Virus record (IMG/VR): IMGVR_UViG_3300028831_000214
Coordinates: 1-50,669 of that record
Source of the DNA: a virus
Reading direction: 5' to 3' (one strand)
DNA: 50,669 nucleotides
The position numbers were made by a program, and so were the translations under genes. Below are positions 8,757 to 49,663 of this stretch, piece by piece. The notes under the pieces are model-generated. The model worked only from the letters and a program-made list of their open reading frames with translations, was not told the origin of the DNA and did no database searches. Every line of letters begins with the position of its first letter. The first letter of the stretch is position 1.

Positions 8757-8798
8757 GTTAAACAAACCCGCGAAGCCGCCCTCCCAAACGCCACACGC
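8757..8798 (-). promoter_or_regulatory. variant copy of the GCGTGTGGnGTT...GTT(T)AAC bipartite motif
   Basis: Minus strand reads GGGGCGTGTGGCGTTTGG...GTTTAACACGG. The spacing is 27 nt to GTTTAAC, against 25 nt to GTTAAAC at the other four sites. Confidence 0.4.
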
Positions 8799-10433: not shown

Positions 10434-10934
10434 TCCGGACCGGGACGAGGAGTACGGGTCAGAACTCCACAGGCCATGGGTCTGCAGTCTGGTCTGGCTC
10501 GTACTCTTCCTTCGTTACTAAGTAACACTATAGGCATAATTAGCCTATAGTAGTTAGGAGTTAGATGCTTCGAGCAATCTAGACCTATACGGCAGCTTAT
10601 TATAGTAAGGGCGAGTATAACTAGTAACACATGACGCATACGTAACCAGTCTTATAGTATTATACCTAGTTTATCTAATCCATATAATAATCAAAGCCTA
10701 AGAGTGAGTAATAATTCTGAATCGGTAGTTCGGTTAGAATTCTCGCAAGGTTTGCGACCGGTATGAGCCGTGTTTACGCCGATCTTGCAGGTTCGCTAAA
10801 CGAGCTCCGAGATACGAGTTCGTAATGACCCTTGTTAGTTCGTAATCGGTAAACGGATGGAGTTGATACCTAATAAGAGTTCAGAGTATAATCATAACAA
10901 GCATGAGAACGTAATACGTAGATAAGGAGTAATA
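10434..10934. other. 500-nt AT-rich non-coding region (candidate origin/regulatory hub or ncRNA locus)
   Basis: No credible ORF. Example GC counts: 22 of 60 at 10501-10560 and 20 of 60 at 10621-10680. Contains hairpin CTATAGGC-ataatta-GCCTATAG, three TATAGTA copies and AGTTCGTAAT twice. Confidence 0.6.
10863..10892 (+). promoter_or_regulatory. sigma70-like promoter (TTGATA-N18-TATAAT)
   Basis: TTGATA at 10863-10868 and TATAAT at 10887-10892, 42 nt upstream of ATG 10935. Confidence 0.6.
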
Positions 10935-12298: not shown

Positions 12299-12307
12299 AG
12301 CTTCCAT

Positions 12308-12390
12308 ACGCCACACGAGCCGCGGATTGGAATGTATCGATTCAGTGAGTGCGTGTGGCGTTTGGTGGCTGTGCGAGGGCGCAGTTAAAC
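12308..12390 (+). promoter_or_regulatory. bipartite motif site: hairpin plus GCGTGTGGcGTT-N21-GTTAAACA
   Basis: ACGCCACACG (12308-12317) pairs with CGTGTGGCGT (12352-12361). GCGTGTGG is at 12351-12358 and TTAAAC at 12385-12390, exactly 26 nt apart. Confidence 0.55.
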
Positions 12391-12406
12391 AAGGTTGGAG
12401 GACAAA

Positions 12407-15088: not shown

Positions 15089-15118
15089 TTGAAAAGTCCT
15101 TGAGTACCCTTGTATAAT
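15089..15118 (+). promoter_or_regulatory. strong consensus promoter P1 (TTGAAA-N18-TATAAT)
   Basis: TTGAAA at 15089-15094 and TATAAT at 15113-15118, followed by TAAA as in the promoter at 17467. Confidence 0.65.
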
Positions 15119-15293: not shown

Positions 15294-16055
15294 ATGGGAG
15301 AAATGGCAGAGCACGACGCCGAGATGTACGGATCGGAGTTCCAGGATCCGAAGCTCCAGTACTTGTACTGGGCCAAGCGCAAGTTCGACAGCAGTCCGCG
15401 ACTGAACTACATGGTCGCTCACAAGCACCCAGAGTTCGGTGTCCTCACTCGGGAGTGGGTCGACATCCTGATCGCACAGCGCGAACAGGCGATCGGGCGT
15501 ATCCAGCGACTCGACGACCCGAACGAGCTGATCGGTCAGCGGGTCACCGTCAGCCTGAATGGCTTCGAGACAGTCAGGAACTACGCACAAGCCGACATCG
15601 ACTTCACGATGGCGGTGTACAACAAGCTCTTCGGAGAGATCAAGGAGAAGAACGTGAGCTGGAATGTCGATGCACTGCGTCGCGAGGCGCGTCGGCTGCT
15701 CGAGGACGCCGACAAGGCCGAGGGCGTGCCGCAGGACGACATGTTCAAGGACGGTCAGGTCCTGACCTTCGCCAAGAAGTTCCAGGAGGGCGGTCGGAGC
15801 TACACCTACGTCGCCATCAAGGTCGCCGCCGTCCGCGTCGGCGAGTTCTGGTTCACCACCGCGCAGCGGTCGGGCGGTCTCAGCGGCCGGCTCAGCTGGC
15901 AGGCGCTGCTCGAGGGCATCGGCCTCGAGAACCTGCACACCATCGAGGTCCTCGACATGGAGACGGCGATGCCGCTCAAGGAGTGGGTCAAGGGCGTGCA
16001 GGAGGTCGTCGAGCAGGACGACGTGAACAGCAGGCCGGCCGGTGCCGACCAGTAG
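15294..16055 (+). CDS. hypothetical protein
   Basis: 253-aa ORF, with AAGGAGGGAGG RBS. The alternative-frame 282-aa ORF (15455-16303) is Arg/Gly-rich shadow. Confidence 0.7.
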   Translation: MGEMAEHDAEMYGSEFQDPKLQYLYWAKRKFDSSPRLNYMVAHKHPEFGVLTREWVDILIAQREQAIGRIQRLDDPNELIGQRVTVSLNGFETVRNYAQADIDFTMAVYNKLFGEIKEKNVSWNVDALRREARRLLEDADKAEGVPQDDMFKDGQVLTFAKKFQEGGRSYTYVAIKVAAVRVGEFWFTTAQRSGGLSGRLSWQALLEGIGLENLHTIEVLDMETAMPLKEWVKGVQEVVEQDDVNSRPAGADQ

Positions 16056-16230
16056 GGACGAGGACAGACTCCTCACGCCGGGCGAGGTCGCTGCGCTGTT
16101 CCGCGTCGACCCGAAGACCGTCACCCGCTGGGCAGCCGCCGGCAGGATCGGCAGCATCCGTACGCCTGGCGGCCACCGCCGCTTCCGCGAATCCGAGATC
16201 CGACTCTTCCTGGAGACCCCGCAGCCATGA
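16042..16230 (+). CDS. BldC-like MerR/excisionase-family DNA-binding protein
   Basis: 62 aa. LLTPGEVAALFRVDPKTVTRWAAAGRIGSIRTPGGHRRFRESEIRLFL closely parallels Streptomyces BldC (LLTPAEVATMFRVDPKTVTRWAKAGKLTSIRTLGGHRRYREAEVRALL, recalled from memory). Confidence 0.8.
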   Translation: MPTSRDEDRLLTPGEVAALFRVDPKTVTRWAAAGRIGSIRTPGGHRRFRESEIRLFLETPQP

Positions 16231-16457: not shown

Positions 16458-16496
16458 GCATTACCCCTTCACCTGCAGCTGTGAGCGCGGGTGAGG

Positions 16497-16615
16497 GCGC
16501 TGCAGAGACTCCGCCAGGAGTCCGCCTTGGACATGGGGCAAGGGGGAAGCGCAGACGGTGACTATGCTGCGGAGCGACAGCGTGCTCACCTCGGTTCGAA
16601 TCCGGCCTGCAGCGC
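16497..16615 (+). ncRNA. structured RNA with a tRNA-like T-arm and 9-bp closing stem (not a canonical tRNA)
   Basis: GCGCTGCAG (16497-16505) pairs with CTGCAGCGC (16607-16615). GGTTCGAATCC is at 16593-16603. Internal hairpins GACTCC-gcca-GGAGTC and CGCAG..CTGCG. 119 nt, with no drawable anticodon arm. Confidence 0.3.
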
Positions 16616-16697
16616 GTGAAAGGAGGTACCACTGTGAAGTAGTACGGAGCAGTAGCTAAGGATCCGAACTGTGTGAGATTGCCTGTAGCTTGCAAGA

Positions 16698-16739: not shown

Positions 16740-16895
16740 ATGATCACGGACCACAAGTACCGTCCGATGTACAAGGCGGACGTCGCAGGTATCGCGAAGG
16801 GTAACTGTCCCTTCAACGGTACCTGCAACAAACCCAAGGAGGAGCACGCCGCAAGCGTGAACCTCAAAGACAAGAGGAGACCGAGTTCGCGATGA
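16740..16895 (+). CDS. hypothetical small protein (51 aa)
   Basis: Not in the track. ATG 16740 follows GGAGGTGACAG, and its stop overlaps the next ATG (ATGA). Confidence 0.45.
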   Translation: MITDHKYRPMYKADVAGIAKGNCPFNGTCNKPKEEHAASVNLKDKRRPSSR

Positions 16896-17389
16896 AGATC
16901 CGTACCCCGCTGGGGTTGTTCGTCGGCTTGACGGTCGCTGGTATGCCCCTGGCGTTGGGCACGGGGCACGCGATCGGCATCCACAACACCAGCTACGAGC
17001 CCATCCCGCAGCCACAGAAGCCGCCGACTGCCGTGCAGGACTACGGCAACGCGGTTCCGAGGATCACGCCTGTTCCCACTCGTGGAACGGGAACGAAGTC
17101 CAAGGGCCGTGTGGTGGTTCGTACGACACCCAAGCCTCAGGTTCAACACAGTCCGGCGGCGCCGAAGGCGACGACAAACTCCACACGCATCGGGGTGACC
17201 AAGGTCGATGAGCCACCTACGCAGAACACCGCTCCGAGCCTCTGTGCCAACGGGCCATGCCCGGAGCCTTCGAGCGACCAGGGCAACGGAGCGTCGCAAC
17301 CGCCGGCGGCAGAAGGACGACCTGACAGCGACCCTAACTCGGGCGCTAGCGGACCAAGGTGCTTCGAACTCTCCTGCTCCAACGATTGA
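16892..17389 (+). CDS. secreted Pro-rich protein with a C-terminal Cys pair motif
   Basis: 165 aa. Signal-peptide-like MKIRTPLGLFVGLTVAGMPLALGTGHA. Pro/Thr-rich with CANGPC and CFELSC. Confidence 0.6.
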   Translation: MKIRTPLGLFVGLTVAGMPLALGTGHAIGIHNTSYEPIPQPQKPPTAVQDYGNAVPRITPVPTRGTGTKSKGRVVVRTTPKPQVQHSPAAPKATTNSTRIGVTKVDEPPTQNTAPSLCANGPCPEPSSDQGNGASQPPAAEGRPDSDPNSGASGPRCFELSCSND

Positions 17390-17441
17390 CCTGCTCGAGG
17401 TCCTGATGAGGTCGTACTAAAAATTCTTTAGTCAGGACCTC

Positions 17442-17472
17442 TTGAAGTTGCCCCTAGAACCTCTGCTATAAT
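17442..17472 (+). promoter_or_regulatory. consensus promoter P2 (TTGAAG-N19-TATAAT)
   Basis: TTGAAG at 17442-17447 and TATAAT at 17467-17472, followed by TAAA. Confidence 0.6.
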
Positions 17473-17501
17473 TAAAGCAGCGGAAAAGACTGGAGGTAAT
17501 C

Positions 17502-18675: not shown

Positions 18676-18704
18676 GTGAAATTCCTTGTTGGATCTAGTA
18701 TAAT
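18676..18704 (+). promoter_or_regulatory. promoter P4 (GTGAAA-N17-TATAAT)
   Basis: GTGAAA at 18676-18681 and TATAAT at 18699-18704. Confidence 0.55.
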
Positions 18705-18714: not shown

Positions 18715-18909
18715 ATGTCGTATGATATGCCGCGTGCTAAGCGCGTCGTGAGCGACTGGATTGAAGACCAGGAGCACATCCTCAGGGAGCAGACCGGTGA
18801 TCAATCGTACGAGTCACCGGAAGCTCTGCTGAAGGACACGGCGGAGACGTACGCTGACCTGGAGGCTATGAAGGGCCTTCATCAACAACTGGAGCGTGAC
18901 TGTGAGTGA
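18715..18909 (+). CDS. hypothetical protein (64 aa)
   Basis: ATG 18715 follows AAGAGGAAGC. The track start 18676 lies inside the promoter. Confidence 0.55.
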   Translation: MSYDMPRAKRVVSDWIEDQEHILREQTGDQSYESPEALLKDTAETYADLEAMKGLHQQLERDCE

Positions 18910-19345
18910 TGAGAAGCCCACCCCGGCTCTCTTCGACCACGCCGTGCGTGTGTACGAGAAGATGCAGGAGGAGTCCACTCGGGAACCGATCGACAAGGTC
19001 GACGAGGACGCTGTCGTCGTAGGAGAAGTGCCTACGGTGCTGGTCTACACCGGCCACCTGACGCGACTCTTCGCGGACCTCGGCATCGCGAACCCGTACT
19101 ACACCAAGATCATGAAGACCCTGGAGGGTCTCGGCTGCGTCGAGCAGCTTCGTCGAGGGGGCGGAGCCGCGACCAGCAAGTGGCTCCTGCACAAGCCGCC
19201 CGTCGAGGAGATCTTCGCGGACTACGTGGAGCGCAAGCGGGCTCCGCAGACGCGGATGCACATCCTGGAGCAGCGCGTGCGGGATTACGGCAGCATGCTC
19301 AACGACATCCTGGACCGACTCGAGAAGCTGGAGAAGACCAGATGA
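18896..19345 (+). CDS. hypothetical protein, possible winged-helix DNA binder
   Basis: 149 aa. YTKIMKTLEGLGCVEQLRRGGG resembles a wHTH recognition region (weak). Confidence 0.55.
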   Translation: MTVSDEKPTPALFDHAVRVYEKMQEESTREPIDKVDEDAVVVGEVPTVLVYTGHLTRLFADLGIANPYYTKIMKTLEGLGCVEQLRRGGGAATSKWLLHKPPVEEIFADYVERKRAPQTRMHILEQRVRDYGSMLNDILDRLEKLEKTR

Positions 19346-20290: not shown

Positions 20291-20385
20291 GTCTAACCTC
20301 AACGTCTAACAAGCAACAGAGACCTGTGAGAACACGAAGTCAACGCGTCTAACCTACAAGCTAACCGTTTAGACAGCGATTAGAA
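20291..20385. promoter_or_regulatory. array of GTCTAAC(C) operator-like repeats
   Basis: GTCTAACC at 20291 and 20347, GTCTAAC at 20304, inverted TTAGAC at 20369-20374, plus partial CTAACC/TTAGAA copies. Lies in the intergenic region before the gene at 20411. Confidence 0.55.
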
Positions 20386-23378: not shown

Positions 23379-23776
23379 TGGAAGACCCCCGGATCGAGTT
23401 GCTGAAGGCGCAGGCGCCGCCTATCCCGGTCAACTGGCCGACGAACGAGCCGAAGGACTCACCCAGGGAGGAGCCGCTCGGTCGACTCCGCATCACGGTG
23501 ACGGCGGAGTTCGACGTCTACCGGAGCAACTACATCACGGACCCGCGCAGCGGCGAGCCCATCCCGAAGCGCAAGGAGCTCACGCTGGCCGACATCGCGC
23601 TCATGGAGCGTACCCACCTGCTCGAGGGCAACACGACCGTCGAGGAGATGCTCGACGAGGCCGACGTGGACCTCGAGGACGACGTGAAGATCGAGGCCGT
23701 CCTGGCGGAGTGCGGTGAGCCGGCTCCGTGCGGTCACGCCCCCAACGGCGGTAACCACCCGACGGTGGGTGCCTGA
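23378..23776 (+). CDS. hypothetical protein
   Basis: TAATG coupling at 23378. 132 aa. Confidence 0.6.
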   Translation: MEDPRIELLKAQAPPIPVNWPTNEPKDSPREEPLGRLRITVTAEFDVYRSNYITDPRSGEPIPKRKELTLADIALMERTHLLEGNTTVEEMLDEADVDLEDDVKIEAVLAECGEPAPCGHAPNGGNHPTVGA

Positions 23777-24060
23777 TGCCCAAGGTCTTCATCTACGACA
23801 CCGACAGGCACGTCTACACCTGGCCCGAGTCCGGCTTCGACAACGACGTGATCCGGGACACGGCCAGCAAGTGGGCCAACGGCAAGCTGGGCAGTGGTGA
23901 GCCGCAGAGCTCCACGGTGCACCATCACAAGCGTGACCAGGCCTGCGTCGGCTACCACCACGACTCGTTCTACCCCGAGGGCGCGGTCGTCTTCGAAGAC
24001 GCAGCCAAGGTCCAGAGTCAGATCATGGAAGAGATGCGCAACACGGTCCCCACCGAGTAA
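23776..24060 (+). CDS. hypothetical protein
   Basis: 94-aa ORF, TGATG coupling. Confidence 0.6.
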   Translation: MPKVFIYDTDRHVYTWPESGFDNDVIRDTASKWANGKLGSGEPQSSTVHHHKRDQACVGYHHDSFYPEGAVVFEDAAKVQSQIMEEMRNTVPTE

Positions 24061-24086
24061 CACAAGCACGATCGGGTAGCTTCAGT

Positions 24087-24206
24087 ACTCCACACGCACG
24101 CCGATCCATTTAACGGATCTTGGAAGTCACGTTAATCGTTCAGAGAGCAATTAACGGGATCGAGAGGCGTGTGGAGTTCTGTGGGTAGCCGATTGGAGGG
24201 TTAAAC
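24087..24206 (+). promoter_or_regulatory. bipartite motif site: long-loop hairpin plus GCGTGTGGaGTT-N21-GTTAAACA
   Basis: ACTCCACACGC (24087-24097) pairs with GCGTGTGGAGT (24167-24177). The 69-nt loop carries TTAACGG(G)ATC twice. GCGTGTGG is at 24167-24174 and TTAAAC at 24201-24206 (26-nt gap), abutting ATG 24207. Confidence 0.55.
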
Positions 24207-24551
24207 ATGTGGAAGCAACTACTGGACCAGGCCTTTGGTCACCTGCACAAGGCCGTCAACCTGCGTGAGCGAATCTACCAGGGTCAGCGTGAGGCCAGGG
24301 CGGAGGCAAAGCGTAAGGGTACGACGCCGATCATCGAGCAGCAGCGCTTCATGACTTCTGCGGTCGCACAGGAGATGATCTCCGACCAGAACTGGTACAT
24401 GCGCCAGGCCGACGCACACAGCGGTGTCGCCACGGCGGCCCTGTTGGAGCAGCTCCTGAACGAGCAGAAGGCAACCAACCAACTCCTGAGCAACCTGGTC
24501 TACTCGGTCGACCGGGTCCACGAGAGCCTCAAGGAAATGAAGGTGTACTGA
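24207..24551 (+). CDS. hypothetical coiled-coil-like protein
   Basis: 114-aa ORF with GGAGGG RBS. Confidence 0.65.
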   Translation: MWKQLLDQAFGHLHKAVNLRERIYQGQREARAEAKRKGTTPIIEQQRFMTSAVAQEMISDQNWYMRQADAHSGVATAALLEQLLNEQKATNQLLSNLVYSVDRVHESLKEMKVY

Positions 24552-25202: not shown

Positions 25203-25231
25203 TTGATTTTCCCGTAGGGACGCTATATACT
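25203..25231 (+). promoter_or_regulatory. promoter P5 (TTGATT-N17-TATACT)
   Basis: TTGATT at 25203-25208 and TATACT at 25226-25231, upstream of the replication/recombination module. Confidence 0.5.
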
Positions 25232-27876: not shown

Positions 27877-27909
27877 GAATGCCCCGGAGCGCACCTCTCC
27901 GGGGCATTC
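27877..27909 (+). terminator. perfect 13-bp hairpin
   Basis: GAATGCCCCGGAG-cgcacct-CTCCGGGGCATTC, 9 nt after the stop at 27868. Confidence 0.7.
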
Positions 27910-27929
27910 CCCATCCTCAAGGGCAGTGT

Positions 27930-30122
27930 ATGGAATCTGACATCAAGACGTTCTTCAACCTGATCTTCGGTCGCACGAACGAAGGTTACATTTGCGTGTC
28001 CTTCTACTCCACTGAGGCCAAGGGCAAGCGCAAGATGACGGAACGGTTCTTTCGCTACCCTGATCAGGTAGGCGACGCTGCTCGCGCAGCTGCGGATGGG
28101 ATGTACGACTCAGATGTCTACTACTGTCCGCAGCTCTTCGAGACTGCGCGACGCACCAAGGACACGGTGAAGAGCTGTCCCACGCTCTGGGCAGACCTCG
28201 ACTCCTGTCCACCCAACAAGATGCAGGTCAAGCCGTCCGTCATCGTCGAAAGCTCACCTGGACGTTACCAGGCACTTTGGCGGGTCGCTCAGGCACTGCC
28301 GCCTCACGTCGCTGAAGACCTCTGCAAGCGTATCGCGTACTTCCACGCAGAGGACGGAGCAGACAGAAGCGGCTGGGACCTGTCACAGCTGCTCCGAGTA
28401 CCCACCACGATCAATTACAAGTACAGTGGCGAGCCTACCGTCAACGTCATCGGTGGCGAGCTTCGTGCAATGTACACGCCGAAGGACTTCGAGGGCTACC
28501 CCGAGGTCAAGCACAGCGTCTTCCTGAAGACGCCTATGCCCACGGCGGAGGAGATGCCTCAGGAGCCTTCCGAGGATATCCTGCAGAAGTACAAGCATGC
28601 CCTGCTCCCAGTGACCTACGACCTGTTCTCTATCACGCCCGATGGGGAATGGTCGGAGAAGCTCTGGAAGCTGGAGATGCTTCTGTTCGAGATGGGTATG
28701 ACGAGGGAGGAGGTCTTCGCCGTATCATGGGATGCGGCCTGTAACAAGTACCGTCGAGACGGCAAGCAGAAGGAGTACCTTTGGACTGAGGTGTGCCGAG
28801 CCTTCGTCGCGTACAACGATCGCGTCAACGCAACGGTGTTTCCAGGACAAGTCATCGCCGACCTCCTGGACGACGAGGAGATCAAGATCGCCAACGCCCA
28901 GACAGGCTTCGTGGAGGAGTACATCGAATGGGCATCGGGCCTCGGAGACGCAGCTACCCAATACCACCAGGCTGGTGCGTTCACAGTCCTGAGTGCACTC
29001 CTATCTGGACGAGTGACACTCCCAACGAGTTATGGACCTGTGGTTCCGAACCTCTGGTTTATGATTCTTGGCGACACTACGTTGACGCGGAAGTCGACGG
29101 CGATGGATATCGCAACGGACCTTCTGATGGACGTCGACCCGGACGCGATCCTCGCAACGGACGGTTCAGTGGAAGGCCTCATGCAAGGTCTATCCACGAG
29201 GCCGAGGCGCCCCTCGATCTTCTTGAGGGACGAGTTCTCGGGCCTCCTGGAGATGATCAGTAAGAAGGACTACTATGCCGGCATGGCCGAAGTGCTCACC
29301 AAGTTGTACGACGGTAAAATGCAGAAGCGCGTCCTGCGCAAAGAGGAGGTGGTGGTTAGAAACCCTATCCTCCTTATCCTCGCTGGAGGAATTCGCAACC
29401 GAGTACAGGGCCTACTTACCCACGAGCACGTCAGCTCCGGCTTCATTCCCCGTTTCATCTTCGTCACTGCAGAAAGCGACACAAGCCGCCTTCAGCCCCT
29501 TGGGCCGCCTACTGCACGGGACATGGGCAATCGCGACCACCTCCTCGAGAAGATGGAAGACATGGTCGAACACTACGGCCAGTCGCGAGGCGCCTACATC
29601 GAGGCCAGAGGGGACCGGAAGCCTTCCACCGAAGGGTTCAGCGCACAGCTGACTCGGGAGGCCTGGGCACGGTACAACAAGCTGGAGGGCGATCTAATCC
29701 AGAGCGGACTCGACTCGGAGAAGCCTGAGCTGATGACGCCACTGTTCGACCGTCTCTCCAAGTCAGGACTGAAGGCAGCAGTTCTACTGGCAGCCGCACG
29801 CCAGGTGGGACAGGAAGGAGTGACAGTAGAGGTCACGGACATCCTCCACGCTATCCGCTACGTAATGCAGTGGCGAGCGTACGCTCTGGAGGTTGTCACA
29901 GGCATCGGCAAGAACACCTACGAGCGGGAGATCGAGCGCATCCTGAACGCGATCGTGAAGCGGCCAGGCATTACGCGTTCGCAGCTCATGCAGTCGTACC
30001 ACCTGACCGCATCGAATGCCAACGCAGTGTTCGACACGCTCATGCAACGAGGACAGATCACCATGAAGCGCACCGAGAGCGGTGCACAGATGTACTATCC
30101 ACTCATCGGAGGAATCAAGTGA
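27930..30122 (+). CDS. bifunctional primase-polymerase / DUF3987-D5-type helicase
   Basis: Start moved to ATG 27930, downstream of the terminator hairpin. 730 aa. N-terminal prim-pol-like region (VIVESSPGRYQALW..LLRVPTTINYKY) and a central helicase-like region. Confidence 0.7.
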   Translation: MESDIKTFFNLIFGRTNEGYICVSFYSTEAKGKRKMTERFFRYPDQVGDAARAAADGMYDSDVYYCPQLFETARRTKDTVKSCPTLWADLDSCPPNKMQVKPSVIVESSPGRYQALWRVAQALPPHVAEDLCKRIAYFHAEDGADRSGWDLSQLLRVPTTINYKYSGEPTVNVIGGELRAMYTPKDFEGYPEVKHSVFLKTPMPTAEEMPQEPSEDILQKYKHALLPVTYDLFSITPDGEWSEKLWKLEMLLFEMGMTREEVFAVSWDAACNKYRRDGKQKEYLWTEVCRAFVAYNDRVNATVFPGQVIADLLDDEEIKIANAQTGFVEEYIEWASGLGDAATQYHQAGAFTVLSALLSGRVTLPTSYGPVVPNLWFMILGDTTLTRKSTAMDIATDLLMDVDPDAILATDGSVEGLMQGLSTRPRRPSIFLRDEFSGLLEMISKKDYYAGMAEVLTKLYDGKMQKRVLRKEEVVVRNPILLILAGGIRNRVQGLLTHEHVSSGFIPRFIFVTAESDTSRLQPLGPPTARDMGNRDHLLEKMEDMVEHYGQSRGAYIEARGDRKPSTEGFSAQLTREAWARYNKLEGDLIQSGLDSEKPELMTPLFDRLSKSGLKAAVLLAAARQVGQEGVTVEVTDILHAIRYVMQWRAYALEVVTGIGKNTYEREIERILNAIVKRPGITRSQLMQSYHLTASNANAVFDTLMQRGQITMKRTESGAQMYYPLIGGIK

Positions 30123-30949
30123 CACAGCCCGACAGCATCGCCGTCTTCTCGGGCGGCCTGGACTCGACCACGATGGTCTACGGCATGCTCGACAGCGGCA
30201 AGACCCCGCACCTGCTGTCGTTCAACTACGGCCAGCGGCACAAGAAGGAGCTGGTCTTCGCCGAGCGCACCGCGCAGCTCCTCGGCCTCCGCTGGGACTG
30301 CATCGACCTCTCCGGCATCACCGGCCTGATCAGCAACTCGGCCCTCACGTCGAAGGGCCGTGAGGACTGGTCGGATGCACAGGCGATCGCGCCCGGCTTC
30401 GTCGGACCGATCTACGACGCTGAGATCGAGGTGCCGGAGGGTCACTACGCCGAGGACAACATGAAGGCGACGGTCGTCCCGAACCGCAACATGATCATGC
30501 TGAGCATCGCCGCCGGCGTGGCCGTAAACAACTCCTACGACAGCGTCTACACGGCCGTGCACGCCGGCGACCACTTCGTGTACCCGGACTGTCGTCCGCA
30601 GTTCATCATGGCCACCAACGCGGCGGCCGTCCTGGGCAACGAGGGCTTCGGCGCCCTGCCCAAGCTGGAGGAGCTGCAGGCGGTGCCAAGCTTCATCATG
30701 GCGCCGTACCTGAACATCTCCAAGGCGGACATCGCCAGCGAGGCCATCCGGCTGAAGGTGCCCTTCGAGAACACCTGGTCCTGCTACAAGGGCGAGTCGA
30801 TGCACTGCGGCAAGTGCGGCACGTGCGTCGAGCGTCTCGAGGCCATCCACGAGGCGCACGTCAAGGCGAACATCCTGTCGCCGGAGAACTGGAAGGACAA
30901 CACGAAGTACGCCGACGCGGACTTCTGGAAGCAGGCGGTGACCAAGTAA
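30119..30949 (+). CDS. queC: 7-cyano-7-deazaguanine (preQ0) synthase QueC
   Basis: GTG 30119 (GTGA overlap). AVFSGGLDSTT PP-loop, VPNRNMIML, and C-terminal SCYKG...HCGKCGTCVER zinc motif. Confidence 0.9.
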   Translation: MTQPDSIAVFSGGLDSTTMVYGMLDSGKTPHLLSFNYGQRHKKELVFAERTAQLLGLRWDCIDLSGITGLISNSALTSKGREDWSDAQAIAPGFVGPIYDAEIEVPEGHYAEDNMKATVVPNRNMIMLSIAAGVAVNNSYDSVYTAVHAGDHFVYPDCRPQFIMATNAAAVLGNEGFGALPKLEELQAVPSFIMAPYLNISKADIASEAIRLKVPFENTWSCYKGESMHCGKCGTCVERLEAIHEAHVKANILSPENWKDNTKYADADFWKQAVTK

Positions 30950-31122
30950 TGGGACGCAAGGACAATAGGAACTGGAACGCACGCGGACAGTGGGGCTCCT
31001 CCAACGGCGGCTCCACGAGTGGCAAGAGCAACGGACGGGCCAAGGCCTTCGCCATTCTCTTCGTCATCGCCGGAGCCACCTTCGTCCTCAGCCCGTTCGT
31101 CTACATCATCACGCACCAGTAG
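30949..31122 (+). CDS. small membrane protein (57 aa) inside the que cluster
   Basis: TAATG coupling to queC. C-terminal TM AFAILFVIAGATFVLSPFVYII. Confidence 0.5.
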   Translation: MGRKDNRNWNARGQWGSSNGGSTSGKSNGRAKAFAILFVIAGATFVLSPFVYIITHQ

Positions 31123-31130
31123 GGAGAGAC

Positions 31131-31244
31131 ATGTTCATCGAGCTCATGCAGCACCGCGGTCGCTGGATCGCCCTCGCCGCCATCAGCATCCTCCTGATGC
31201 TGGACATCGTCTGGGGCGACGGTAGCTGCTCCAAGGCCGTCTGA
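31131..31244 (+). CDS. small membrane protein (37 aa) inside the que cluster
   Basis: ATG 31131 follows AGGGAGAGAC. TM WIALAAISILLMLDIVW. Confidence 0.4.
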   Translation: MFIELMQHRGRWIALAAISILLMLDIVWGDGSCSKAV

Positions 31245-31254
31245 CACCGAACCC

Positions 31255-31299
31255 CACGGGCGTGTGGAGTTGTGAAGGCTACACACGCCCGTGTTAAAC
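31255..31299 (+). promoter_or_regulatory. bipartite motif site: 12-bp hairpin plus GCGTGTGGaGTT-N21-GTTAAACA
   Basis: CACGGGCGTGTG (31255-31266) pairs with CACACGCCCGTG (31282-31293), with a 15-nt loop. GCGTGTGG is at 31260-31267 and TTAAAC at 31294-31299 (26-nt gap). Confidence 0.55.
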
Positions 31300-31345
31300 A
31301 GTACATCCGAAGTAGACCAAACCCCACACGCACTAGGGAGCGCAA

Positions 31346-31828
31346 GTGGATGTCATCGTTCGGCATAACGCCGAGATCGCACACAGGCTGTCTCAGTCGC
31401 CTGGCAAGTGCCAGCAGATCCACGGTCACGGCCTGCAGATCACGCTGACGCTGATGATGCTGCGTCAGGACGAGAAGACCGGCATGGTCCAGAACCAGCT
31501 GGGGAAGACCTTGGACTTCTCCGAGATCAAGCAGCACTTCCGTTCCTACATCGACGAGGGCTACGATCACCACCTGCTCCTGAACGAGAAGGACGAGTGG
31601 GCACGACTTCACCTCTCCTTCAGCGTCGGGCGTCCCGACGAGCAACTGCCGGGACTGAAGACCTTCCCGGGCGACCCGACCGTCGAGAACCTCGCCAAGT
31701 GGATCGCGCTCTGGGCCGCCTCGACGTTCGCTGCGAACACCATCGTTCGAATCGACGAGACCCGAACCAACGCAGCCGAAGCTCGCGCCATCTGGAAGGG
31801 CTCGCTGCAGCCGGAGGTGACGATGTGA
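31346..31828 (+). CDS. queD: 6-carboxytetrahydropterin synthase QueD
   Basis: 160 aa, GTG start after GGGAGCGCAA. The CQQIHGHG..HHLLLNE pattern is typical of the PTPS/QueD family. Operon context. Confidence 0.85.
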   Translation: MDVIVRHNAEIAHRLSQSPGKCQQIHGHGLQITLTLMMLRQDEKTGMVQNQLGKTLDFSEIKQHFRSYIDEGYDHHLLLNEKDEWARLHLSFSVGRPDEQLPGLKTFPGDPTVENLAKWIALWAASTFAANTIVRIDETRTNAAEARAIWKGSLQPEVTM

Positions 31829-32562
31829 TCAAGATCAACGAGATCTTCGGACCAACCGTTCAGGGCGAGGGAGCTGCAGGTGGTCGCCACTGCATGTTCG
31901 TCAGGGTTGCCAACTGCAACCTGACCTGTACGTGGTGTGACACAGCCTACACCTGGGCATTCAACGAGCACAAGGCCAACAAGCTCGAGGTCCCCGTGAT
32001 CTTCAACAAGGACGAGAACCTCAAGGAGATGTCCGCCGAGGACGTGCTGGAGAAGCTCCACGACCTGTGGGACATCTATGAGCACCCGACGATGATCGTC
32101 ATCTCAGGTGGTGAGCCCCTGATGCAGTCCAAGGAGCTGATCCCCCTGGCACAGGAGCTCGTCAACTACGACAACATGATTCACGTCGAGACGGCCGGCA
32201 CGCTGATTCCCGATTCTACGTTCCACGAGCTCGTCACGCAGTACAACGTGTCGCCGAAGCTGGCACACTCCGGCAACCGGCTCGAGATGCGGCGGAAGCC
32301 GGACGCGCTTCGATTCTTCGCTGAGTCGGACAAGTCCTGGTTCAAGTTCGTGCTTCGTACGCCGACTGACTTCGAGGAGGTGGACGAACTCGTCGCCACG
32401 TTCGACATCAACCCGCACCGTGTCATGGTGATGCCCGAAGGGGTGACCGCCGAGAAGAACATGGAGATCGCCAAGACGCTCGTCGACGACGCAGTCGCAC
32501 GTGGCTACGGCCTCTCCTACCGCACACACATCCTGCTCTGGAAGGACGTCCGTGGAAAGTAA
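31825..32562 (+). CDS. queE: 7-carboxy-7-deazaguanine synthase QueE (radical SAM)
   Basis: GTG 31825 (overlaps the queD stop). EIFGPTVQGEG and CNLTCTWCDT cluster motif. Confidence 0.9.
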   Translation: MIKINEIFGPTVQGEGAAGGRHCMFVRVANCNLTCTWCDTAYTWAFNEHKANKLEVPVIFNKDENLKEMSAEDVLEKLHDLWDIYEHPTMIVISGGEPLMQSKELIPLAQELVNYDNMIHVETAGTLIPDSTFHELVTQYNVSPKLAHSGNRLEMRRKPDALRFFAESDKSWFKFVLRTPTDFEEVDELVATFDINPHRVMVMPEGVTAEKNMEIAKTLVDDAVARGYGLSYRTHILLWKDVRGK

Positions 32563-33127
32563 CCCACTCGAACACGAGCACGAGACGCCGGGCTGCGCGG
32601 AGGATCTCCTCGCCGTCCACGCTGGACTCGACATGAGTACGGAGCACGGGAAGGACACGCCGACTCGCTTCCTGACGATGCTCGGCGACCTGACCTCACA
32701 CAAGACCTGCAACGAGGCCTGCATCAAGTGGAAGGTCTTCGACGGTGACGTGGACGAGATGATCGTCGTCAAGAAGATCCCGTTCGTCAGCGTCTGCAAC
32801 CATCACGTCATCCCGTTCGTCGGCCACGCTTGGGTCGGCTACGTCCCGAAGACCAAGATCGTCGGCCTGTCGAAGTTCGCACGCGTGGTCGAGCACTTCG
32901 CACGTCGACTCCAGGTGCAGGAACGACTCACGCAGGAAGTGCACAACTTCATCCACCTGAACCTCGACACCAAGGGCATCATCGTTCGAATGGAGGCGGA
33001 GCACCTGTGCATGACGATCCGTGGGGCTCAGGCTCCGGGAGTTACCACCGTGACCACGAAGACCTCTGGCGTCTTCGCCGATCACTCCCGCACCGCGAAG
33101 CACGAGTTCCTGGAGGCCATCAAGTGA
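32552..33127 (+). CDS. folE: GTP cyclohydrolase I FolE
   Basis: GTG 32552. SVCNHHVIPF, VGLSKFARVVEHFARRLQVQERLT and EAEHLCM motifs are characteristic of GCH-I. Confidence 0.9.
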   Translation: MESNPLEHEHETPGCAEDLLAVHAGLDMSTEHGKDTPTRFLTMLGDLTSHKTCNEACIKWKVFDGDVDEMIVVKKIPFVSVCNHHVIPFVGHAWVGYVPKTKIVGLSKFARVVEHFARRLQVQERLTQEVHNFIHLNLDTKGIIVRMEAEHLCMTIRGAQAPGVTTVTTKTSGVFADHSRTAKHEFLEAIK

Positions 33128-33899: not shown

Positions 33900-34168
33900 C
33901 AAGCTGTGTGCAGTACACGGGACGCTGGGTCACGATCCAGGCCTTCATGGACGCGTCGGGCTACATCCCGGTCGTCGGTCCGGTCCCGCACGTCCGCGTC
34001 GACAACTCCGGCGGGGAGCCGCGCCTGAAGGTCTGGTGCTCCGACGGTCAGATCCGCGAGGTCCGCAACGGGCAGTACCTGGTGCTGGAGGACGAGCAGG
34101 ATCCGCCTCTGCCCTCCCGGTACAACGCTTCAACCCAGTCGGTCGGTACCGTCTGGACGATGCCGTGA
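33896..34168 (+). CDS. hypothetical protein translationally coupled to dpdA
   Basis: 90-aa ORF. ATGA coupling upstream and GTGA coupling downstream. Confidence 0.6.
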   Translation: MTSCVQYTGRWVTIQAFMDASGYIPVVGPVPHVRVDNSGGEPRLKVWCSDGQIREVRNGQYLVLEDEQDPPLPSRYNASTQSVGTVWTMP

Positions 34169-34929
34169 AAGCGGCCCTGATTCCGCCGAAGGGCTACTTC
34201 AACACGGCCAGGCGCTCGGACATCCACCTCGTTCTGGCACAGATCGAGGACTTCACCTACCGCAACATGTACCAGCACCTCGACGGGGACAACTTCATCA
34301 TCCTGGACAACGGTGCCGCAGAAGGTGATGCGGTGCCGGACGGTCACCTGATGACGATGGCCGCTACGCTGGGTCCGAACGAGATCGTCCTGCCGGACGT
34401 GATGGAGGACGCGGAACGTACGGTCCTTCGAACCAAGGCGTTCCTGTGGACGTTCAGGCCATTCATCCAGGACAACGTGGATGCGTTCGGCTTCATGGCC
34501 GTACCGCAGGGGTACAACGTCGGCGAGATGAAGGACTGCATCAAGGAGTTCATCCAGTTCGAGGAGATCAAGACCCTCGGCATCCCACGACACCTGGTGG
34601 CCAAGGATCACATGGGTCGGTACGTCCTATGCGATTGGCTGGAGAAGGAAAAACTCCACACGCGCTTCGCGGTCCATCTGCTGGGCACGAGTGGTGACTA
34701 TCCCACCGAGATTCGGTACATCGCAACGGACTTTCCTTGGGTCCGTTCGGTCGACAGCTCGATGCCGTACAACTACACTATCGCCGGCCAGCGTCTCGAG
34801 GACAAGCACAAGGTCACTCGGCCGGAGGGGTACTTCGAGAAGGACTGGAAGCTGAACGACGTTCTGCTTCAGCACAACATCGACGTCTACATGAGGTGGG
34901 CACGTGGAGTCGAAAGCACCCGGAGCTAA
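34165..34929 (+). CDS. dpdA: DpdA-family DNA transglycosylase (TGT-fold, inserts 7-deazaguanine into DNA)
   Basis: GTG 34165. 254 aa. The TGT-like motif series ILDNGAAEG, MAVPQGY, LGIPRHL, VHLLGTSG, VDSSMPY. Adjacent to the preQ0 pathway genes. Confidence 0.8.
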   Translation: MKAALIPPKGYFNTARRSDIHLVLAQIEDFTYRNMYQHLDGDNFIILDNGAAEGDAVPDGHLMTMAATLGPNEIVLPDVMEDAERTVLRTKAFLWTFRPFIQDNVDAFGFMAVPQGYNVGEMKDCIKEFIQFEEIKTLGIPRHLVAKDHMGRYVLCDWLEKEKLHTRFAVHLLGTSGDYPTEIRYIATDFPWVRSVDSSMPYNYTIAGQRLEDKHKVTRPEGYFEKDWKLNDVLLQHNIDVYMRWARGVESTRS

Positions 34930-37829: not shown

Positions 37830-37841
37830 TTTCTAAGCGAT

Positions 37842-37938: not shown

Positions 37939-37979
37939 GATTGCACTCGAACACAACACCACACGCACAAGGGGAGACA

Positions 37980-40547: not shown

Positions 40548-40791
40548 CGATCAGTCCTCCTAGTGATGCAAGCAGCTCCCACGTTAGGCCCTGCACGTTG
40601 TCATTCGGGAATGTTCCCTGAACCAGCTTCTGGATGGCCGTCTGCTGGTCGATCTTGTCAGACTCCTGAAGAGCCTGAACACGGGTGTAGGGGATGTTCA
40701 CCATCATCTTGGCGCCAGCGAAGTACTGCGCTTCCACGGTGATGTGATCCCCAGTGCGTGTGGCGTTTGAAATGGTCACGAGCGGCATCAT
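40363..40791 (-). CDS. hypothetical protein; the last ~60 codons overlap the holin-like gene out of frame
   Basis: The first ~80 aa look protein-like. After LASLGG the frame runs on through the holin RBS with Arg/Gly-rich shadow-like sequence. Confidence 0.45.
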   Translation of the reverse strand: MMPLVTISNATRTGDHITVEAQYFAGAKMMVNIPYTRVQALQESDKIDQQTAIQKLVQGTFPNDNVQGLTWELLASLGGLIDGKVQQSADGATRRDSRGNPVGDRRAVGRQGDADRVAGNPGSADRQPRRRRVVARKPTHHG

Positions 40792-49505: not shown

Positions 49506-49618
49506 TGCTGTTCTCCTTCTGAACAGTAGTGGAAGTCCATCGATCAGGACTGCCAGGTAGAACGAACCAAATAGAAGGTATACGACGTCGACGATTGCCT
49601 CGATCATCTTCGTCCCTT

Positions 49619-49663
49619 GTTTAACCGAGGGGCGTGTAGTAGACGAAACCCCACACGCCCCTC
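49619..49663 (-). promoter_or_regulatory. bipartite motif site: 11-bp hairpin plus GCGTGTGGgGTT-N21-GTTAAACA after the major tail gene
   Basis: Minus strand reads GAGGGGCGTGT-(15-nt loop)-ACACGCCCCTC then GG TTAAAC. GCGTGTGG is at 49658-49651 and TTAAAC at 49624-49619 (26-nt gap). Confidence 0.55.

What the first reader, a model, noticed from the sequence alone, without database searches (positions are those of the whole stretch)
24087..24206. Genome-wide bipartite element GCGTGTGGnGTT-N21-GTTAAACA with invariant spacing at operon junctions on both strands
Seen in the sequence: four sites carry GCGTGTGG and TTAAAC separated by exactly 26 nt.

| Site | Strand | GCGTGTGG | TTAAAC |
|---|---|---|---|
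| 1 | + | 12351-12358 | 12385-12390 |
| 2 | + | 24167-24174 | 24201-24206 |
| 3 | + | 31260-31267 | 31294-31299 |
| 4 | - | 49658-49651 | 49624-49619 |

All four also share nGTT after the first box, and a G before and an A after the second box. A fifth, looser copy lies at 8798-8757 (minus strand; GTTTAAC, spacing +2).

Fourteen or more specified positions are not expected even once by chance in 2 x 50 kb.

The GCGTGTGG box is always one arm of a hairpin, but the partner arm lies in different places:
- upstream with a 34-nt loop at site 1
- upstream with a 69-nt loop at site 2
- downstream with a 15-nt loop at sites 3 and 4

The linear spacing to TTAAAC is nevertheless fixed. That argues for recognition of the DNA (or a linear RNA) rather than of one common fold.

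The sites sit just upstream of the RBS of the first gene of new gene blocks. Those blocks are the 12407 block, the 24207 block, queD-queE-folE, the tail chaperones/tape measure, and the membrane-protein/terL block. They therefore span early-type and late-type genes.

I do not recognise this as a known Streptomyces sigma-factor promoter, nut/put site or riboswitch.
Basis: seen in the sequence. Interest (0 to 1): 0.7.

Follow-up and report, generated by a model that had tools for sequence, protein, structure and literature searches.

The report
Conserved intergenic punctuation signal in phage
A roughly 41-base two-part DNA signal sits between gene blocks of this uncultured soil phage and its relatives, most likely marking where long messenger RNAs are stopped, cut or allowed through; it belongs to a known kind of phage control element, but its sequence and layout are new.

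Summary
GCGTGTGGNGTT-N21-GTTAAACA occurs exactly four times (0.01 expected), plus a looser fifth copy. Orthologous copies are conserved in dozens of ~50-kb metagenomic phage contigs whose genes are only 45-80% identical.

The description needs four corrections:
- The 12-bp box is a module of its own. It has 10 exact copies (0.05 expected), on both strands.
- The second box is the near-palindrome GTTWAAC(A).
- Box-to-centre spacing is 20-23 nt across relatives, not invariant.
- Composite sites exist, both face-to-face (31260-31331, 17107-17188) and back-to-back (24086-24206).

At four of the five sites the box is one arm of a very stable hairpin specific to the gene strand (z -4 to -6). These hairpins show compensatory and wobble changes and end at GTTWAAC, just before the next ribosome-binding site.

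Canonical sigma-70-like promoters are conserved elsewhere in the genome, and none lies at these sites. No Rfam family, phage RNA polymerase or sigma factor was found.

Best reading (about 40%): factor-modulated terminator or processing signals that subdivide a few long operons. Rivals are a factor-dependent promoter, a DNA operator and a primase/helicase loading site. I judge it a new variant of a known kind, of moderate interest.

The parts
12307..12318 (-). Site 1: reversed, imperfect box (TCGTGTGGCGTA). It forms the 5' arm of the site-1 hairpin in the plus-strand transcript.
   Evidence: hairpin z -4.8
12351..12391 (+). Site 1 full unit: box 12351-12362, 21-nt spacer with its own 9-bp hairpin, centre GTTAAAC-A 12384-12391. 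The ribosome-binding site GGAGG and the GTG start at 12407 follow.
24086..24097 (-). Site 2: reversed box (GCGTGTGGAGTA). A degenerate centre GTGTTAC overlaps the stop codon of gene 23776-24060. This box forms the 5' arm of the long site-2 hairpin.
24167..24207 (+). Site 2 full unit (the finding's coordinates): box 24167-24178, spacer containing the ribosome-binding site GGAGG, centre 24200-24206, ATG at 24207. The whole gap 24062-24206 folds into one hairpin (-60.6 kcal/mol, z -6.3).
   Evidence: orthologs L014, L020-L024
31260..31331 (+). Site 3, a two-fold symmetric composite: box(+) 31260-31271, inner hairpin arm 31281-31292, centre 31293-31299, reversed box 31320-31331. Ribosome-binding site 31336-31340 and the queD GTG start at 31346 follow directly.
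   Evidence: conserved in 15 or more relatives
49618..49658 (-). Site 4 full unit, between the major tail protein gene (49669-50607) and the tail chaperone gene (start 49607). Box 49658-49647, hairpin of -31.9 kcal/mol (z -6.3), centre 49625-49619.
   Evidence: ortholog in L001/L010/L056 with compensatory changes
8757..8798 (-). Site 5, the looser unit, between the terS-like gene (8903-9264) and the membrane-protein/terL block. Box 8798-8787, 23-nt spacer, centre GTTTAAC 8763-8757, GTG start at 8740. No hairpin involves the box.
   Evidence: orthologs with canonical 21-nt spacing in L002, L008, L009, L018
17107..17188 (+). Site 6, a degenerate symmetric composite inside ORF 16892-17389: CCGTGTGGTGGT, GTTCAAC at 17141-17147, and an exact reversed box at 17177-17188.
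   Evidence: well-formed orthologs in L009 (intergenic), L020, L023, L024
37931..37966 (-). Site 7: exact reversed box 37955-37966 immediately upstream of a ribosome-binding site, with the centre-like GTCTAAC at 37931-37937. A long TAGAC/GTCTAAC inverted-repeat hairpin (37840-37945) precedes it.
   Evidence: reversed box conserved 450-1000 nt after PolA in 11 relatives
40756..40767 (+). Solo exact box in the convergent junction between the plus-strand and minus-strand gene blocks.
   Evidence: conservation not established
34652..34663 (-). Solo exact box inside gene 34036-34929. It is not found at the orthologous place in L019.
   Evidence: possibly lineage-specific or chance
10463..10474 (-). 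Reversed box with one mismatch (GCCTGTGGAGTT), at the end of the first early gene group.
   Evidence: an exact reversed box lies at a roughly corresponding place in L009 (3026-)

Best explanation
The element is an intercistronic 'punctuation' signal that acts on the phage's long polycistronic transcripts. A few canonical sigma-70-like promoters drive long operons, and the elements cut each operon into a promoter-proximal part and a distal part.

In the gene-strand RNA, the invariant GU-rich box GCGUGUGG(A)GUU(U)G is one arm of a stable hairpin. The hairpin closes at the A/U-rich GUUWAACA, which is followed within 0-17 nt by the next start codon.

I propose that hairpin plus A/U tract acts as an imperfect ('I-shaped') terminator or attenuator, and as a 3'-end stabiliser. 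I further propose that the box, possibly together with the centre about three helical turns away, is the recognition site of a lineage-specific trans-acting factor. That factor would decide whether RNA polymerase reads through (antitermination) or whether the RNA is cut there.

Shown: the motifs, their conservation, their placement, the strand-specific hairpins with covariation, and the absence of sigma-70 promoter features.

Inferred: termination or processing activity, the existence and identity of the factor, and the timing role.
For: 1. Placement:
- Every full site fills the short gap between a stop codon and the next ribosome-binding site.
- Canonical promoters lie in other gaps and are conserved in relatives: near 10863, 15089, 17437, 18676 and 25203 on the plus strand, and near 9290 on the minus strand. 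Each promoter-driven operon is therefore subdivided by an element.

2. Hairpins on the gene strand:
- Sites 3 and 4 and 11 orthologs form 15-19 bp stems of -25 to -32 kcal/mol, with z of -4 to -6.5.
- Site 2 and 4 orthologs have z of -4.1 to -6.3, and site 1 has z of -4.8.

3. Selection on the fold:
- Double-sided changes occur at flank positions -5 to -1 and at box positions 1 and 9.
- A-to-G changes in the partner arm give U.G pairs, while the box itself never changes.
- The reverse unit at site 3 has no hairpin on its own strand: mean z +0.6 against -4.6.

4. The stem ends 0-4 nt into GTT, so UU(W)AAC follows it directly.

5. A hairpin directly after the major tail gene is general in more distant relatives. 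This fits an attenuator role at site 4.

6. In L009 a separate 15-bp hairpin follows terS, ahead of site 5.

7. The box differs between lineages: GCGTGTGGAGGT in L025 and GCGGTGTGGTTC in L027. That is expected for a phage-encoded recognition partner.

8. Precedent: in E. coli rrn leaders boxC (UCUGUGUGGG) is nearly invariant while its partner strand covaries through wobble pairs, and it sits at a fixed 18-19 nt from boxA (PMC10250234).
Against: - There is no T-run after the stems, so the sites fail a canonical intrinsic-terminator scan.
- Site 5 and its orthologs have box plus centre but no significant fold.
- Site 6 lies inside an ORF in five genomes.
- Reversed boxes are as well conserved as forward ones, including solo copies next to a ribosome-binding site (site 7 in 11 relatives). 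An RNA-only model does not explain this.
- Paired boxes do not covary at positions 1 and 9.
- No antiterminator-like protein was identified.
- There are no transcript data.
Confidence: 0.4

Rival explanations
1. Factor-dependent (middle or late) promoter. The box would be the binding site of a phage activator or sigma-like factor. A TTG triplet right after the box would serve as a -35 remnant, and GTTWAAC would be an unusual -10 or initiation region. The overlapping hairpin would be the terminator of the upstream unit.
For: - All five full units point toward the downstream gene and lie 0-17 nt before its start.
- TTG follows the box at positions 11-15 in most units, leaving 17-18 nt to TTAAAC.
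- Genes distal to the sites include DNA polymerase, terL, portal and tail genes, and they have no recognisable promoter of their own.
- In L009 a strong hairpin separates terS from site 5.
- Repeated 46-50 bp promoter motifs are known in actinophages: ESAS in Adephagia (PMC11373665) and the motif in Vardy (PMC9671010).
Against: - GTTWAAC lacks the TANNNT features of actinobacterial -10 elements, whereas the same genomes carry near-consensus TTGACA-17-TATAAT promoters.
- The 31-bp centre-to-centre distance is too long for one sigma factor to span.
- At site 2 the conserved ribosome-binding site is upstream of GTTAAAC and the ATG abuts it. A transcript starting after the centre could not express that gene.
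- The centre core is palindromic, and reversed units exist.
- No sigma factor or RNA polymerase was found.
Confidence: 0.17
2. RNA processing and stability sites, analogous to the T7 RNase III sites. A host endoribonuclease would cut in or next to the A/U-rich centre or in the long stems. This would leave a protective 3' hairpin on the upstream message and free the downstream ribosome-binding site.
For: - The layout is the same as in the best explanation: stable gene-strand hairpin, single-stranded A/U-rich tract, then the ribosome-binding site.
- There are 5-7 sites spread over early and late regions, as in T7 (own knowledge).
- The rrn leader-trailer stem carrying boxC is a processing stem (PMC10250234).
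Against: - A nuclease that recognises structure does not explain why the box sequence never drifts while its partner does.
- It also does not explain box-plus-centre without a hairpin at site 5, or solo reversed boxes.
Confidence: 0.15
3. Double-stranded DNA operator sites of a phage regulator, working like stoperators or global Kor-type operators. A protein would bind the asymmetric box, and a dimer would bind the palindromic centre on the same face of the helix. Together they would block or modulate RNA polymerase at operon junctions.
For: - The box is conserved equally in both orientations, without covariation between partners, and solo copies exist.
- The box is an asymmetric 12-15 bp site with 10 or more copies per genome, in short intergenic gaps, as for cluster A stoperators (PMC9283540).
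- The centre-to-centre spacing of about 31 bp is close to 3 helical turns.
- A conserved winged-helix protein (18896-19345) and zinc-ribbon proteins are encoded by all relatives.
Against: - It does not explain the strand-specific hairpins with compensatory changes.
- No integrase, immunity repressor or lysogeny module was seen.
- There is no orientation bias of the box relative to transcription, unlike stoperators.
- The only MerR/Xis-type HTH protein (16042-16230) is present in just one relative.
Confidence: 0.12
4. Replication signals: single-strand initiation sites or helicase-loading sites for the phage's RepB'-type primase fused to an SF3 (D5-like) helicase. The symmetric composites at 31260-31331 and 17107-17188 would act as bidirectional origins.
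For: - The primase at 27879-30122 has a RepB_primase domain plus DUF3987.
- RSF1010 RepB' needs 40-nt ssiA/ssiB signals. These have specific 5' nucleotides, a hairpin, and a start at the T of GTG 4-5 nt after the hairpin, and they occur as an inverted pair (PMC8567376). That is formally like box, hairpin and GTT.
- Site 3 lies just downstream of the primase-queC genes and has two-fold symmetry around an AT-rich core.
- The protein at 18896-19345 best matches RepA_N initiator domains.
Against: - Seven dispersed sites, including some in the structural operon, would be unusual for origins.
- The reverse unit has no hairpin on its own strand.
- The tight placement against ribosome-binding sites would be unexplained.
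- The fold match is weak (E 4e-3, TM 0.33-0.45).
- AT-rich repeat regions at 9430-9560 and 10480-10930 look more origin-like.
Confidence: 0.1

Closest known systems
[quoted passage not shown]
   Same: Both are lineage-specific conserved motifs repeated 7-19 times. Both lie in the larger intergenic gaps just upstream of start codons and are combined with imperfect inverted repeats of variable spacing. Both are conserved across subclusters with subcluster-specific base changes. The original authors also concluded that the inverted repeats are protein sites rather than RNA stems (PMC3203893).
   Different: SAS overlaps the ribosome-binding site itself. ESAS contains SigA-like -35 and -10 hexamers 17-18 bp apart (PMC11373665), which are absent here. 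ESAS sites are confined to the non-structural arm. The sequences are unrelated.
Stoperators of cluster A mycobacteriophages
   Same: Both are asymmetric 12-13 bp sites present in tens of copies, in short intergenic gaps of both genome arms, and both diverge between lineages (PMC9283540, PMC6550527).
   Different: Stoperators are oriented with transcription, are bound by the immunity repressor of temperate phages, have no partner box at fixed spacing and are not hairpin arms. No repressor or integrase was found here.
rrn / lambda nut antitermination signals (boxB hairpin, boxA, boxC)
   Same: All combine a hairpin with short conserved RNA boxes at fixed spacing. BoxC (UCUGUGUGGG) is GU-rich and nearly invariant while its pairing partner covaries through wobble pairs, and the boxA-boxC distance is 18-19 nt (PMC10250234). 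rrn boxA plus spacer, UGCUCUUUAACAA (PMC2724277), resembles UGUUUAACA. The M. tuberculosis rrn leader contains GUGUGUUUGGUGG (PMC7399025), which resembles GUGUGG(N)GUUUGGUGG at site 1.
   Different: The order of the two boxes is reversed here, with the boxC-like box first. The commoner centre form GUUAAACA matches boxA less well. There are 5-7 sites at intercistronic positions rather than 1-2 promoter-proximal ones. Reversed copies exist. Nus-factor binding was not tested.
T7 RNase III processing sites
   Same: Both comprise about 5-10 conserved intercistronic hairpins in early and late regions, lying between a stop codon and the next ribosome-binding site (own knowledge).
   Different: In T7 conservation is spread over both strands of the stem and an internal loop. 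Here one arm is invariant and is tied to a separate A/U-rich box, and one site has no hairpin.
RSF1010 ssiA/ssiB single-strand initiation signals
   Same: Both are about 40 nt long and consist of a specific 5' sequence, a hairpin and a 3' start triplet of the GTN kind. Both occur as inverted pairs and are used by a RepB'-type primase, a domain present in this phage (PMC8567376).
   Different: RSF1010 has only one pair per replicon, inside oriV. Here the reverse unit lacks a hairpin, the sites are dispersed and they abut ribosome-binding sites.

Membership tests
Sigma-70/SigA-type promoter | A -35 hexamer like TTGACA and a -10 hexamer like TATAAT (TANNNT in actinobacteria), 16-18 bp apart | tested here: not met
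   The consensus scan finds no hit at any of the sites, while it does find TTGATA-18-TATAAT, TTGAAA-18-TATAAT and others elsewhere. GTTWAAC has no A at position 2 or T at position 6 in any register.
Canonical intrinsic (L-shaped) terminator | A GC-rich hairpin followed at once by a run of T/U | tested here: inconclusive
   Hairpin: met at sites 1-4. T-run of at least 5 in 8: not met, because only TT(W)AAC follows. Hairpin-only terminators are described in actinobacteria (own knowledge), so function cannot be excluded.
Known structured RNA family (riboswitch, leader, sRNA) | A match to an Rfam covariance model at or above the gathering score | tested here: not met
   No match in the whole window on either strand.
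lambda nut / rrn antiterminator | BoxA consensus (UGCUCUUUA, or the host equivalent) bound by NusB-NusE, located 5' of boxC and adjacent to the boxB hairpin, downstream of a promoter | tested here: inconclusive
   Sequence resemblance is partial (UGUUUAACA against UGCUCUUUAACAA). The box order is reversed, the sites are not promoter-proximal and the host boxA is unknown. Nus-factor binding is not testable here.
Stoperator (cluster A phage repressor site) | An asymmetric site in one orientation relative to transcription, with an immunity repressor encoded by a temperate phage | tested here: not met
   Boxes occur about equally in both orientations within the plus-strand gene block. No integrase or repressor domain was found among about 60 proteins scanned.
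ESAS-type promoter/operator motif | SigA-like hexamers inside the conserved motif, plus a 15-17 bp inverted repeat with a 4-14 bp spacer | tested here: not met
   There are no SigA hexamers (see above). Inverted box pairs are 32-69 bp apart, or share a centre 26 bp away from each box.
RSF1010-type ssi signal | A hairpin-containing single-strand signal on each strand, recognised by a RepB' primase | tested here: inconclusive
   The primase domain is present and the length and layout are similar. But the reverse unit has no hairpin on its own strand. Priming is not testable here.
MITE or other mobile repeat | Copies share their internal sequence as well as their ends, and are present or absent between relatives | tested here: not met
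   Spacers are unrelated between sites within one genome. The sites are orthologous and stable across relatives while the spacers diverge.

The most novel reading that the evidence does not exclude
The elements would be mimics of the host's ribosomal-RNA leader signals. They carry a boxC-like invariant GU-rich strand held in a wobble-tolerant helix, and a boxA-like UGUUWAACA about 20 nt away. They would recruit the host Nus/rrn antitermination and processing machinery repeatedly along the phage operons. A whole family of uncultured actinophages would then gain processive, termination-resistant transcription without encoding an N- or Q-like protein or its own polymerase. A second, equally unexcluded novel reading is that they are dispersed loading or priming sites for the RepB'-type primase fused to an SF3 helicase.
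Probability: 0.15. Interest if true: 0.8.

Novelty: new variant of a known kind. Interest (0 to 1): 0.5.

Why it matters
How actinobacteriophages time and balance gene expression is largely unknown, and SAS/ESAS elements have lacked a mechanism since 2011.

This element gives a sharply defined cis signal that is easy to mutate. It has two boxes, a measurable spacing and optional hairpins. It has hundreds of natural variants in a large family of about 50-kb soil phages that has no cultured member.

If it is a factor-controlled terminator or processing site, it would show how a phage with only host RNA polymerase and a handful of consensus promoters subdivides its operons. If it recruits host Nus factors or the phage primase-helicase, it would be a new mechanism for this host group.

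In practice, the motif is also a good marker for recognising this phage family in metagenomes.

Tried and rejected
- **Close relatives among cultured phages.** Megablast of 4 kb and a blastn of a 61-nt consensus found nothing relevant.
- **Relatives via a single SNF2 protein.** The search of viral contigs failed. Protein alignments worked later.
- **Contig look-ups.** Two look-ups were wasted because my start codons differed from the recorded gene calls.
- **MerR/Xis-type HTH (16042-16230) as the box binder.** Rejected, because it is present in only one of eight relatives.
- **Phage sigma factor or RNA polymerase.** None turned up in Pfam, PHROGs, NCBIfam or PDB sequence searches of about 60 proteins.
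- **ECF-type, SigB/SigF-type and sigma-54 geometries.** I checked these by eye against the aligned units and found no conserved partner element. They are rejected.
- **Chi-like site, DnaA box, integron attC, REP/BIME, Tus-Ter, 16S complementarity.** I considered each from memory. Each shares a few bases or one architectural trait but fails on layout. None was tested further.
- **RNAalifold on a MAFFT alignment of the hairpins.** This under-called the structure because stem registers shift. I replaced it with a register-based pair table.
- **tRNA-like element near 16.5 kb.** Not recognised by ARAGORN or Rfam.
Full report
**1. The observation**

The 41-nt pattern GCGTGTGGNGTT-N21-GTTAAACA matches exactly at four places: 12351(+), 24167(+), 31260(+) and 49658(-). 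No further match appears even with three mismatches allowed, and shuffled sequence gives 0.01 matches. The looser fifth copy at 8798(-) has an exact box, the centre GTTTAAC, and a 23-nt gap instead of 21.

**2. The genome**

- The window is a 50.7-kb, 60% GC, circularly assembled phage genome.
- Minus-strand structural genes run from 9264 down through coordinate 1 and on to 40788: a terS-like gene, terL 6664-8109, portal, capsid, the major tail protein 49669-50607 and a 1138-aa tape measure protein.
- Plus-strand early and replication genes run from about 9600 to 40563: SNF2 helicase 21560, a PD-(D/E)XK nuclease 25279, a RepB'-type primase with DUF3987 at 27879, queC/D/E-folE, and PolA 34904.
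- No cultured phage is close. TerL is 38% identical to that of Arthrobacter phage Wollypog, and the primase is 30% identical to those of Curtobacterium and Arthrobacter phages.
- The SNF2 protein has hundreds of relatives on 50-53-kb soil and rhizosphere metagenome contigs. This is a large uncultured family, and a Streptomyces host is not established.

**3. Conservation**

- Exact-pattern scans of viral and metagenome collections returned orthologs of sites 2, 3, 4 and 5, in genomes whose coding DNA is about 70% identical to the window.
- I fetched 21-kb stretches around SNF2, PolA and the major tail gene.
- These gave 51 non-redundant box-plus-centre units. Spacers and flanks are not conserved, whereas the box and the centre are.
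The element is real and under selection.

**4. Corrected anatomy**

- **a. The box.**
  - Its consensus is (G/C)CGTGTGG(A)GTT(T)(T/G)G.
  - It is an independent module with 10 exact copies in the window against 0.05 expected.
  - About as many copies lie antisense to the local genes as lie sense.
- **b. The centre.**
  - It is GTTWAAC followed by A. Its 7-bp core is palindromic, and the middle base is A or T in different orthologs.
  - All five GTTWAAC copies in the window belong to these sites.
- **c. The spacing.** The gap from box to centre is 20-23 nt across relatives, with 21 the commonest value. The two motifs are about 31 bp apart centre to centre, roughly three helical turns.
- **d. 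Combinations of units.**
  - Site 3 is exactly two-fold symmetric: box, 26 nt, TTAA, 26 nt, reversed box (31260-31331). This is conserved in every relative examined.
  - Site 6 (17107-17188) has the same design. It is degenerate in the window and lies inside an ORF in five genomes, but it is intergenic in two others.
  - Sites 1 and 2 are back-to-back pairs.
  - Site 7 (37955-37966) is a solo reversed box directly before a ribosome-binding site. It is conserved in 11 relatives.
- **e. Distant relatives.** In relatives with 47-53% SNF2 identity the box changes to GCGTGTGGAGGT or GCGGTGTGGTTC. The second motif becomes (G)TATTGAGG, next to the ribosome-binding site.

**5. What the element is not**

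- Consensus scans find no sigma-70-type promoter and no T-run terminator at any site.
- The same genomes carry well-conserved canonical promoters in other intergenic gaps.
  - Window examples are TTGATA-18-TATAAT at 10863, TTGAAA-18-TATAAT at 15089, TTGAAG-19-TATAAT near 17437, and others at 18676 and 25203.
  - On the minus strand, TTGTGT-18-TATAAT lies near 9290, in front of the terS-like gene. In L009 the corresponding promoter is a perfect TTGACA-17-TATAAT.
- Rfam finds nothing in the window.
- No sigma factor, RNA polymerase, integrase or repressor was detected among about 60 proteins.

**6. The hairpins are real and strand-specific**

- At sites 3 and 4 and in 11 orthologs, the box plus its 5' flank pairs with the 3' half of the spacer.
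  - The stems are 15-19 bp, with -25 to -32 kcal/mol and z of -4 to -6.5.
  - A register-based pair table shows double-sided (compensatory) changes at flank positions -5 to -1 and at box positions 1 and 9.
  - It also shows frequent A-to-G changes in the partner arm that keep U.G pairs, while the box itself never changes.
  - The stem ends 0-4 nt into GTT.
- At site 3 the reversed unit has no hairpin on its own strand, with mean z +0.6 against -4.6 for the forward unit. The fold is therefore a property of the gene-sense strand, that is, of the transcript.
- At site 2 the whole 145-nt gap folds into one hairpin whose basal stem is reversed box against box. It has z -6.3, and orthologs in L014, L021, L022 and L023 have z of -4.1 to -5.9.
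- Site 1 has z -4.8.
- Site 5 orthologs show no significant fold, although in L009 a separate 15-bp hairpin follows terS.

**7. Two layers of constraint**

- One layer is an RNA-level hairpin that closes at an A/U-rich tract just before the next ribosome-binding site.
- The other is sequence-specific conservation of the box and centre that goes beyond what pairing needs. It holds in both orientations and also at sites without a hairpin.
- Paired boxes do not covary at their variable positions 1 and 9. Each box therefore matches the consensus in its own right.

**8. Best mechanism**

- Each operon driven by a canonical promoter is divided by one of these sites:
  - P10863, then site 1.
  - P18676, then site 2.
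  - P25203, then site 3, then site 7.
  - P9290(-), then terS, site 5, the major tail gene, and site 4.
- Essential distal genes (DNA polymerase, terL, portal, tail) have no promoter of their own that I can recognise.
- I therefore favour conditional punctuation. The hairpin plus A/U tract would attenuate transcription or mark a 3' end. A lineage-specific factor that recognises the box, and perhaps the centre, would set the level of read-through or cleavage.
- A hairpin directly after the major tail gene is general in more distant relatives, which fits an attenuator at site 4.
- This is inference. No transcript data exist, the tract is not U-rich, and site 5, site 6 and the solo reversed boxes are not explained. 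I put it at about 0.4.

**9. Rivals**

- **Factor-dependent promoter (0.17).** It is attractive because TTG follows the box at the right distance for a -35, and because the distal genes need a promoter. It is contradicted by the non-TANNNT, palindromic centre. It is also contradicted by site 2, where the conserved ribosome-binding site lies upstream of the centre and the ATG abuts it.
- **RNA processing and stability (0.15).** It shares most of the evidence for the best explanation, but it does not explain the box invariance.
- **DNA operator, stoperator-like (0.12).** It explains conservation in both orientations but not the strand-specific folds.
- **Primase or helicase loading signal (0.10).** It is suggested by three things:
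  - the RepB'-type primase;
  - the formal likeness to the 40-nt ssiA/ssiB signals (PMC8567376);
  - the two-fold symmetric site 3 next to the primase gene.

  It is weakened by the missing hairpin on the reverse strand and by the dispersal of the sites.

**10. A conserved DNA-binding candidate**

- The protein encoded at 18896-19345 is present in all relatives.
- It gives a confident model (pLDDT 88.8) with a winged-helix domain and a long C-terminal helix.
- Its best structural matches are the N-terminal domains of RepA_N plasmid initiators (E 4e-3, 21-24% identity), followed by MarR and ArsR regulators.
- It is a plausible trans-factor, but nothing ties it to the box.

**11. An untested lead**

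- E. coli rrn boxC is UCUGUGUGGG. It is nearly invariant while its partner strand covaries by wobble, and it lies a fixed 18-19 nt from boxA (PMC10250234).
- rrn boxA plus spacer reads UGCUCUUUAACAA (PMC2724277).
- The M. tuberculosis rrn leader contains AGUGUGUUUGGUGG (PMC7399025).
- The extended box GUGUGG(N)GUUUGG(U/A)GG and the centre UGUUWAACA resemble these, with a similar fixed spacing.
- However, the order of the two boxes is reversed, and the commoner GUUAAACA form fits boxA poorly.
- I list this as the most novel reading that the evidence does not exclude.

**12. Verdict**

The finding is a real, conserved, lineage-specific cis element. In kind it belongs with the repeated intergenic control motifs of phages: SAS/ESAS, stoperators, T7 RNase III sites and nut sites. 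In sequence, bipartite geometry, symmetric composites and the 'invariant arm' hairpins it is a new variant. Its function is unresolved.

Noticed in passing
window 10863-10892, 15089-15118, about 17437-17475, 18676-18704 and 25203-25231 (+); about 9268-9300 (-): Near-consensus sigma-70-like promoters occupy intergenic gaps other than those holding the element. The one near 17437 has an upstream A-tract and is conserved in L009 and L020-L024. The minus-strand one, in front of the terS-like gene, is a perfect TTGACA-17-TATAAT in L009.
   Followed up: partly
window about 16480-16625 (T-loop-like GGTTCGAATCC at 16593-16603): A tRNA-like segment (GGGCAAGGGGGAAGCG ... GGTTCGAATCC ... with complementary ends) is conserved at the same place in L009 and L020-L024. 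Neither ARAGORN nor Rfam calls it, even at E<=1.
   Followed up: partly
window 20291-20375 and 37840-37945: A second repeat family, GTCTAAC/GTTAGAC ('TAGAC' repeats), clusters in two intergenic gaps. At 37840-37945 it forms a long inverted repeat just before the site-7 reversed box. The same motif fills the gap after the major tail gene in distant relatives (L059, L066, L068, L072). It differs from the centre GTTWAAC by one base.
   Followed up: partly
window 9361-9373 and 9407-9419; AT-rich stretch 9430-9560: Two direct repeats of GTACTTCATACGT lie upstream of the minus-strand promoter in the divergent control region. L009 has a different repeat (TTCTAAGCAAG, twice) at the same place. They look like operators of a lineage-specific regulator.
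   Followed up: no
window 10480-10930: This is a 450-bp AT-rich, non-coding stretch full of short TATAGTA-like repeats, ending in the strongest early promoter. It could be a replication origin or a multi-promoter region.
   Followed up: no
window 18896-19345: This gene encodes a 149-aa protein conserved in all relatives. The confident model shows a winged helix-turn-helix plus a long C-terminal helix. Its best structural matches are RepA_N plasmid initiator domains (5kbj, 4pt7, 4pql), followed by MarR and ArsR regulators. The protein family is confined to this phage group.
   Followed up: yes
window 16892-17389: This ORF encodes an N-terminal transmembrane helix followed by a Pro/Thr-rich tail. 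It carries the whole symmetric site 6 in frame (RV..V / VK / KTPH). In L009 and L021 the same site is intergenic.
   Followed up: partly
window 30122-33127 and 34904-37315: The genome carries a 7-deazaguanine pathway (queC, queD, queE, folE) and a family A DNA polymerase with an N-terminal uracil-DNA-glycosylase-like domain. This suggests modified DNA. No DpdA-like transglycosylase was recognised.
   Followed up: no
window 8903-9264 (-): The first gene of the minus-strand block matches a small terminase subunit only weakly (PHROG E 9e-4). It is separated from terL by site 5, a 68-aa membrane protein and a 112-aa ORF. Its position behind a strong, operator-flanked promoter would also suit a regulator.
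   Followed up: partly
L077, about 10950-11010: A distant relative (51% major tail protein identity) has an ordinary terminator-like hairpin after the major tail gene. Its stem, CGGCGGGTGTGG/CCACACCCGCCG, resembles the box.
   Followed up: no
L007 (Pedobacter alluvionis NZ_RCCK01000018.1): The only exact match to the 41-nt pattern in about 185,000 reference genomes lies in a 33% GC coding region. It has no similarity to the window and is a chance hit.
   Followed up: yes
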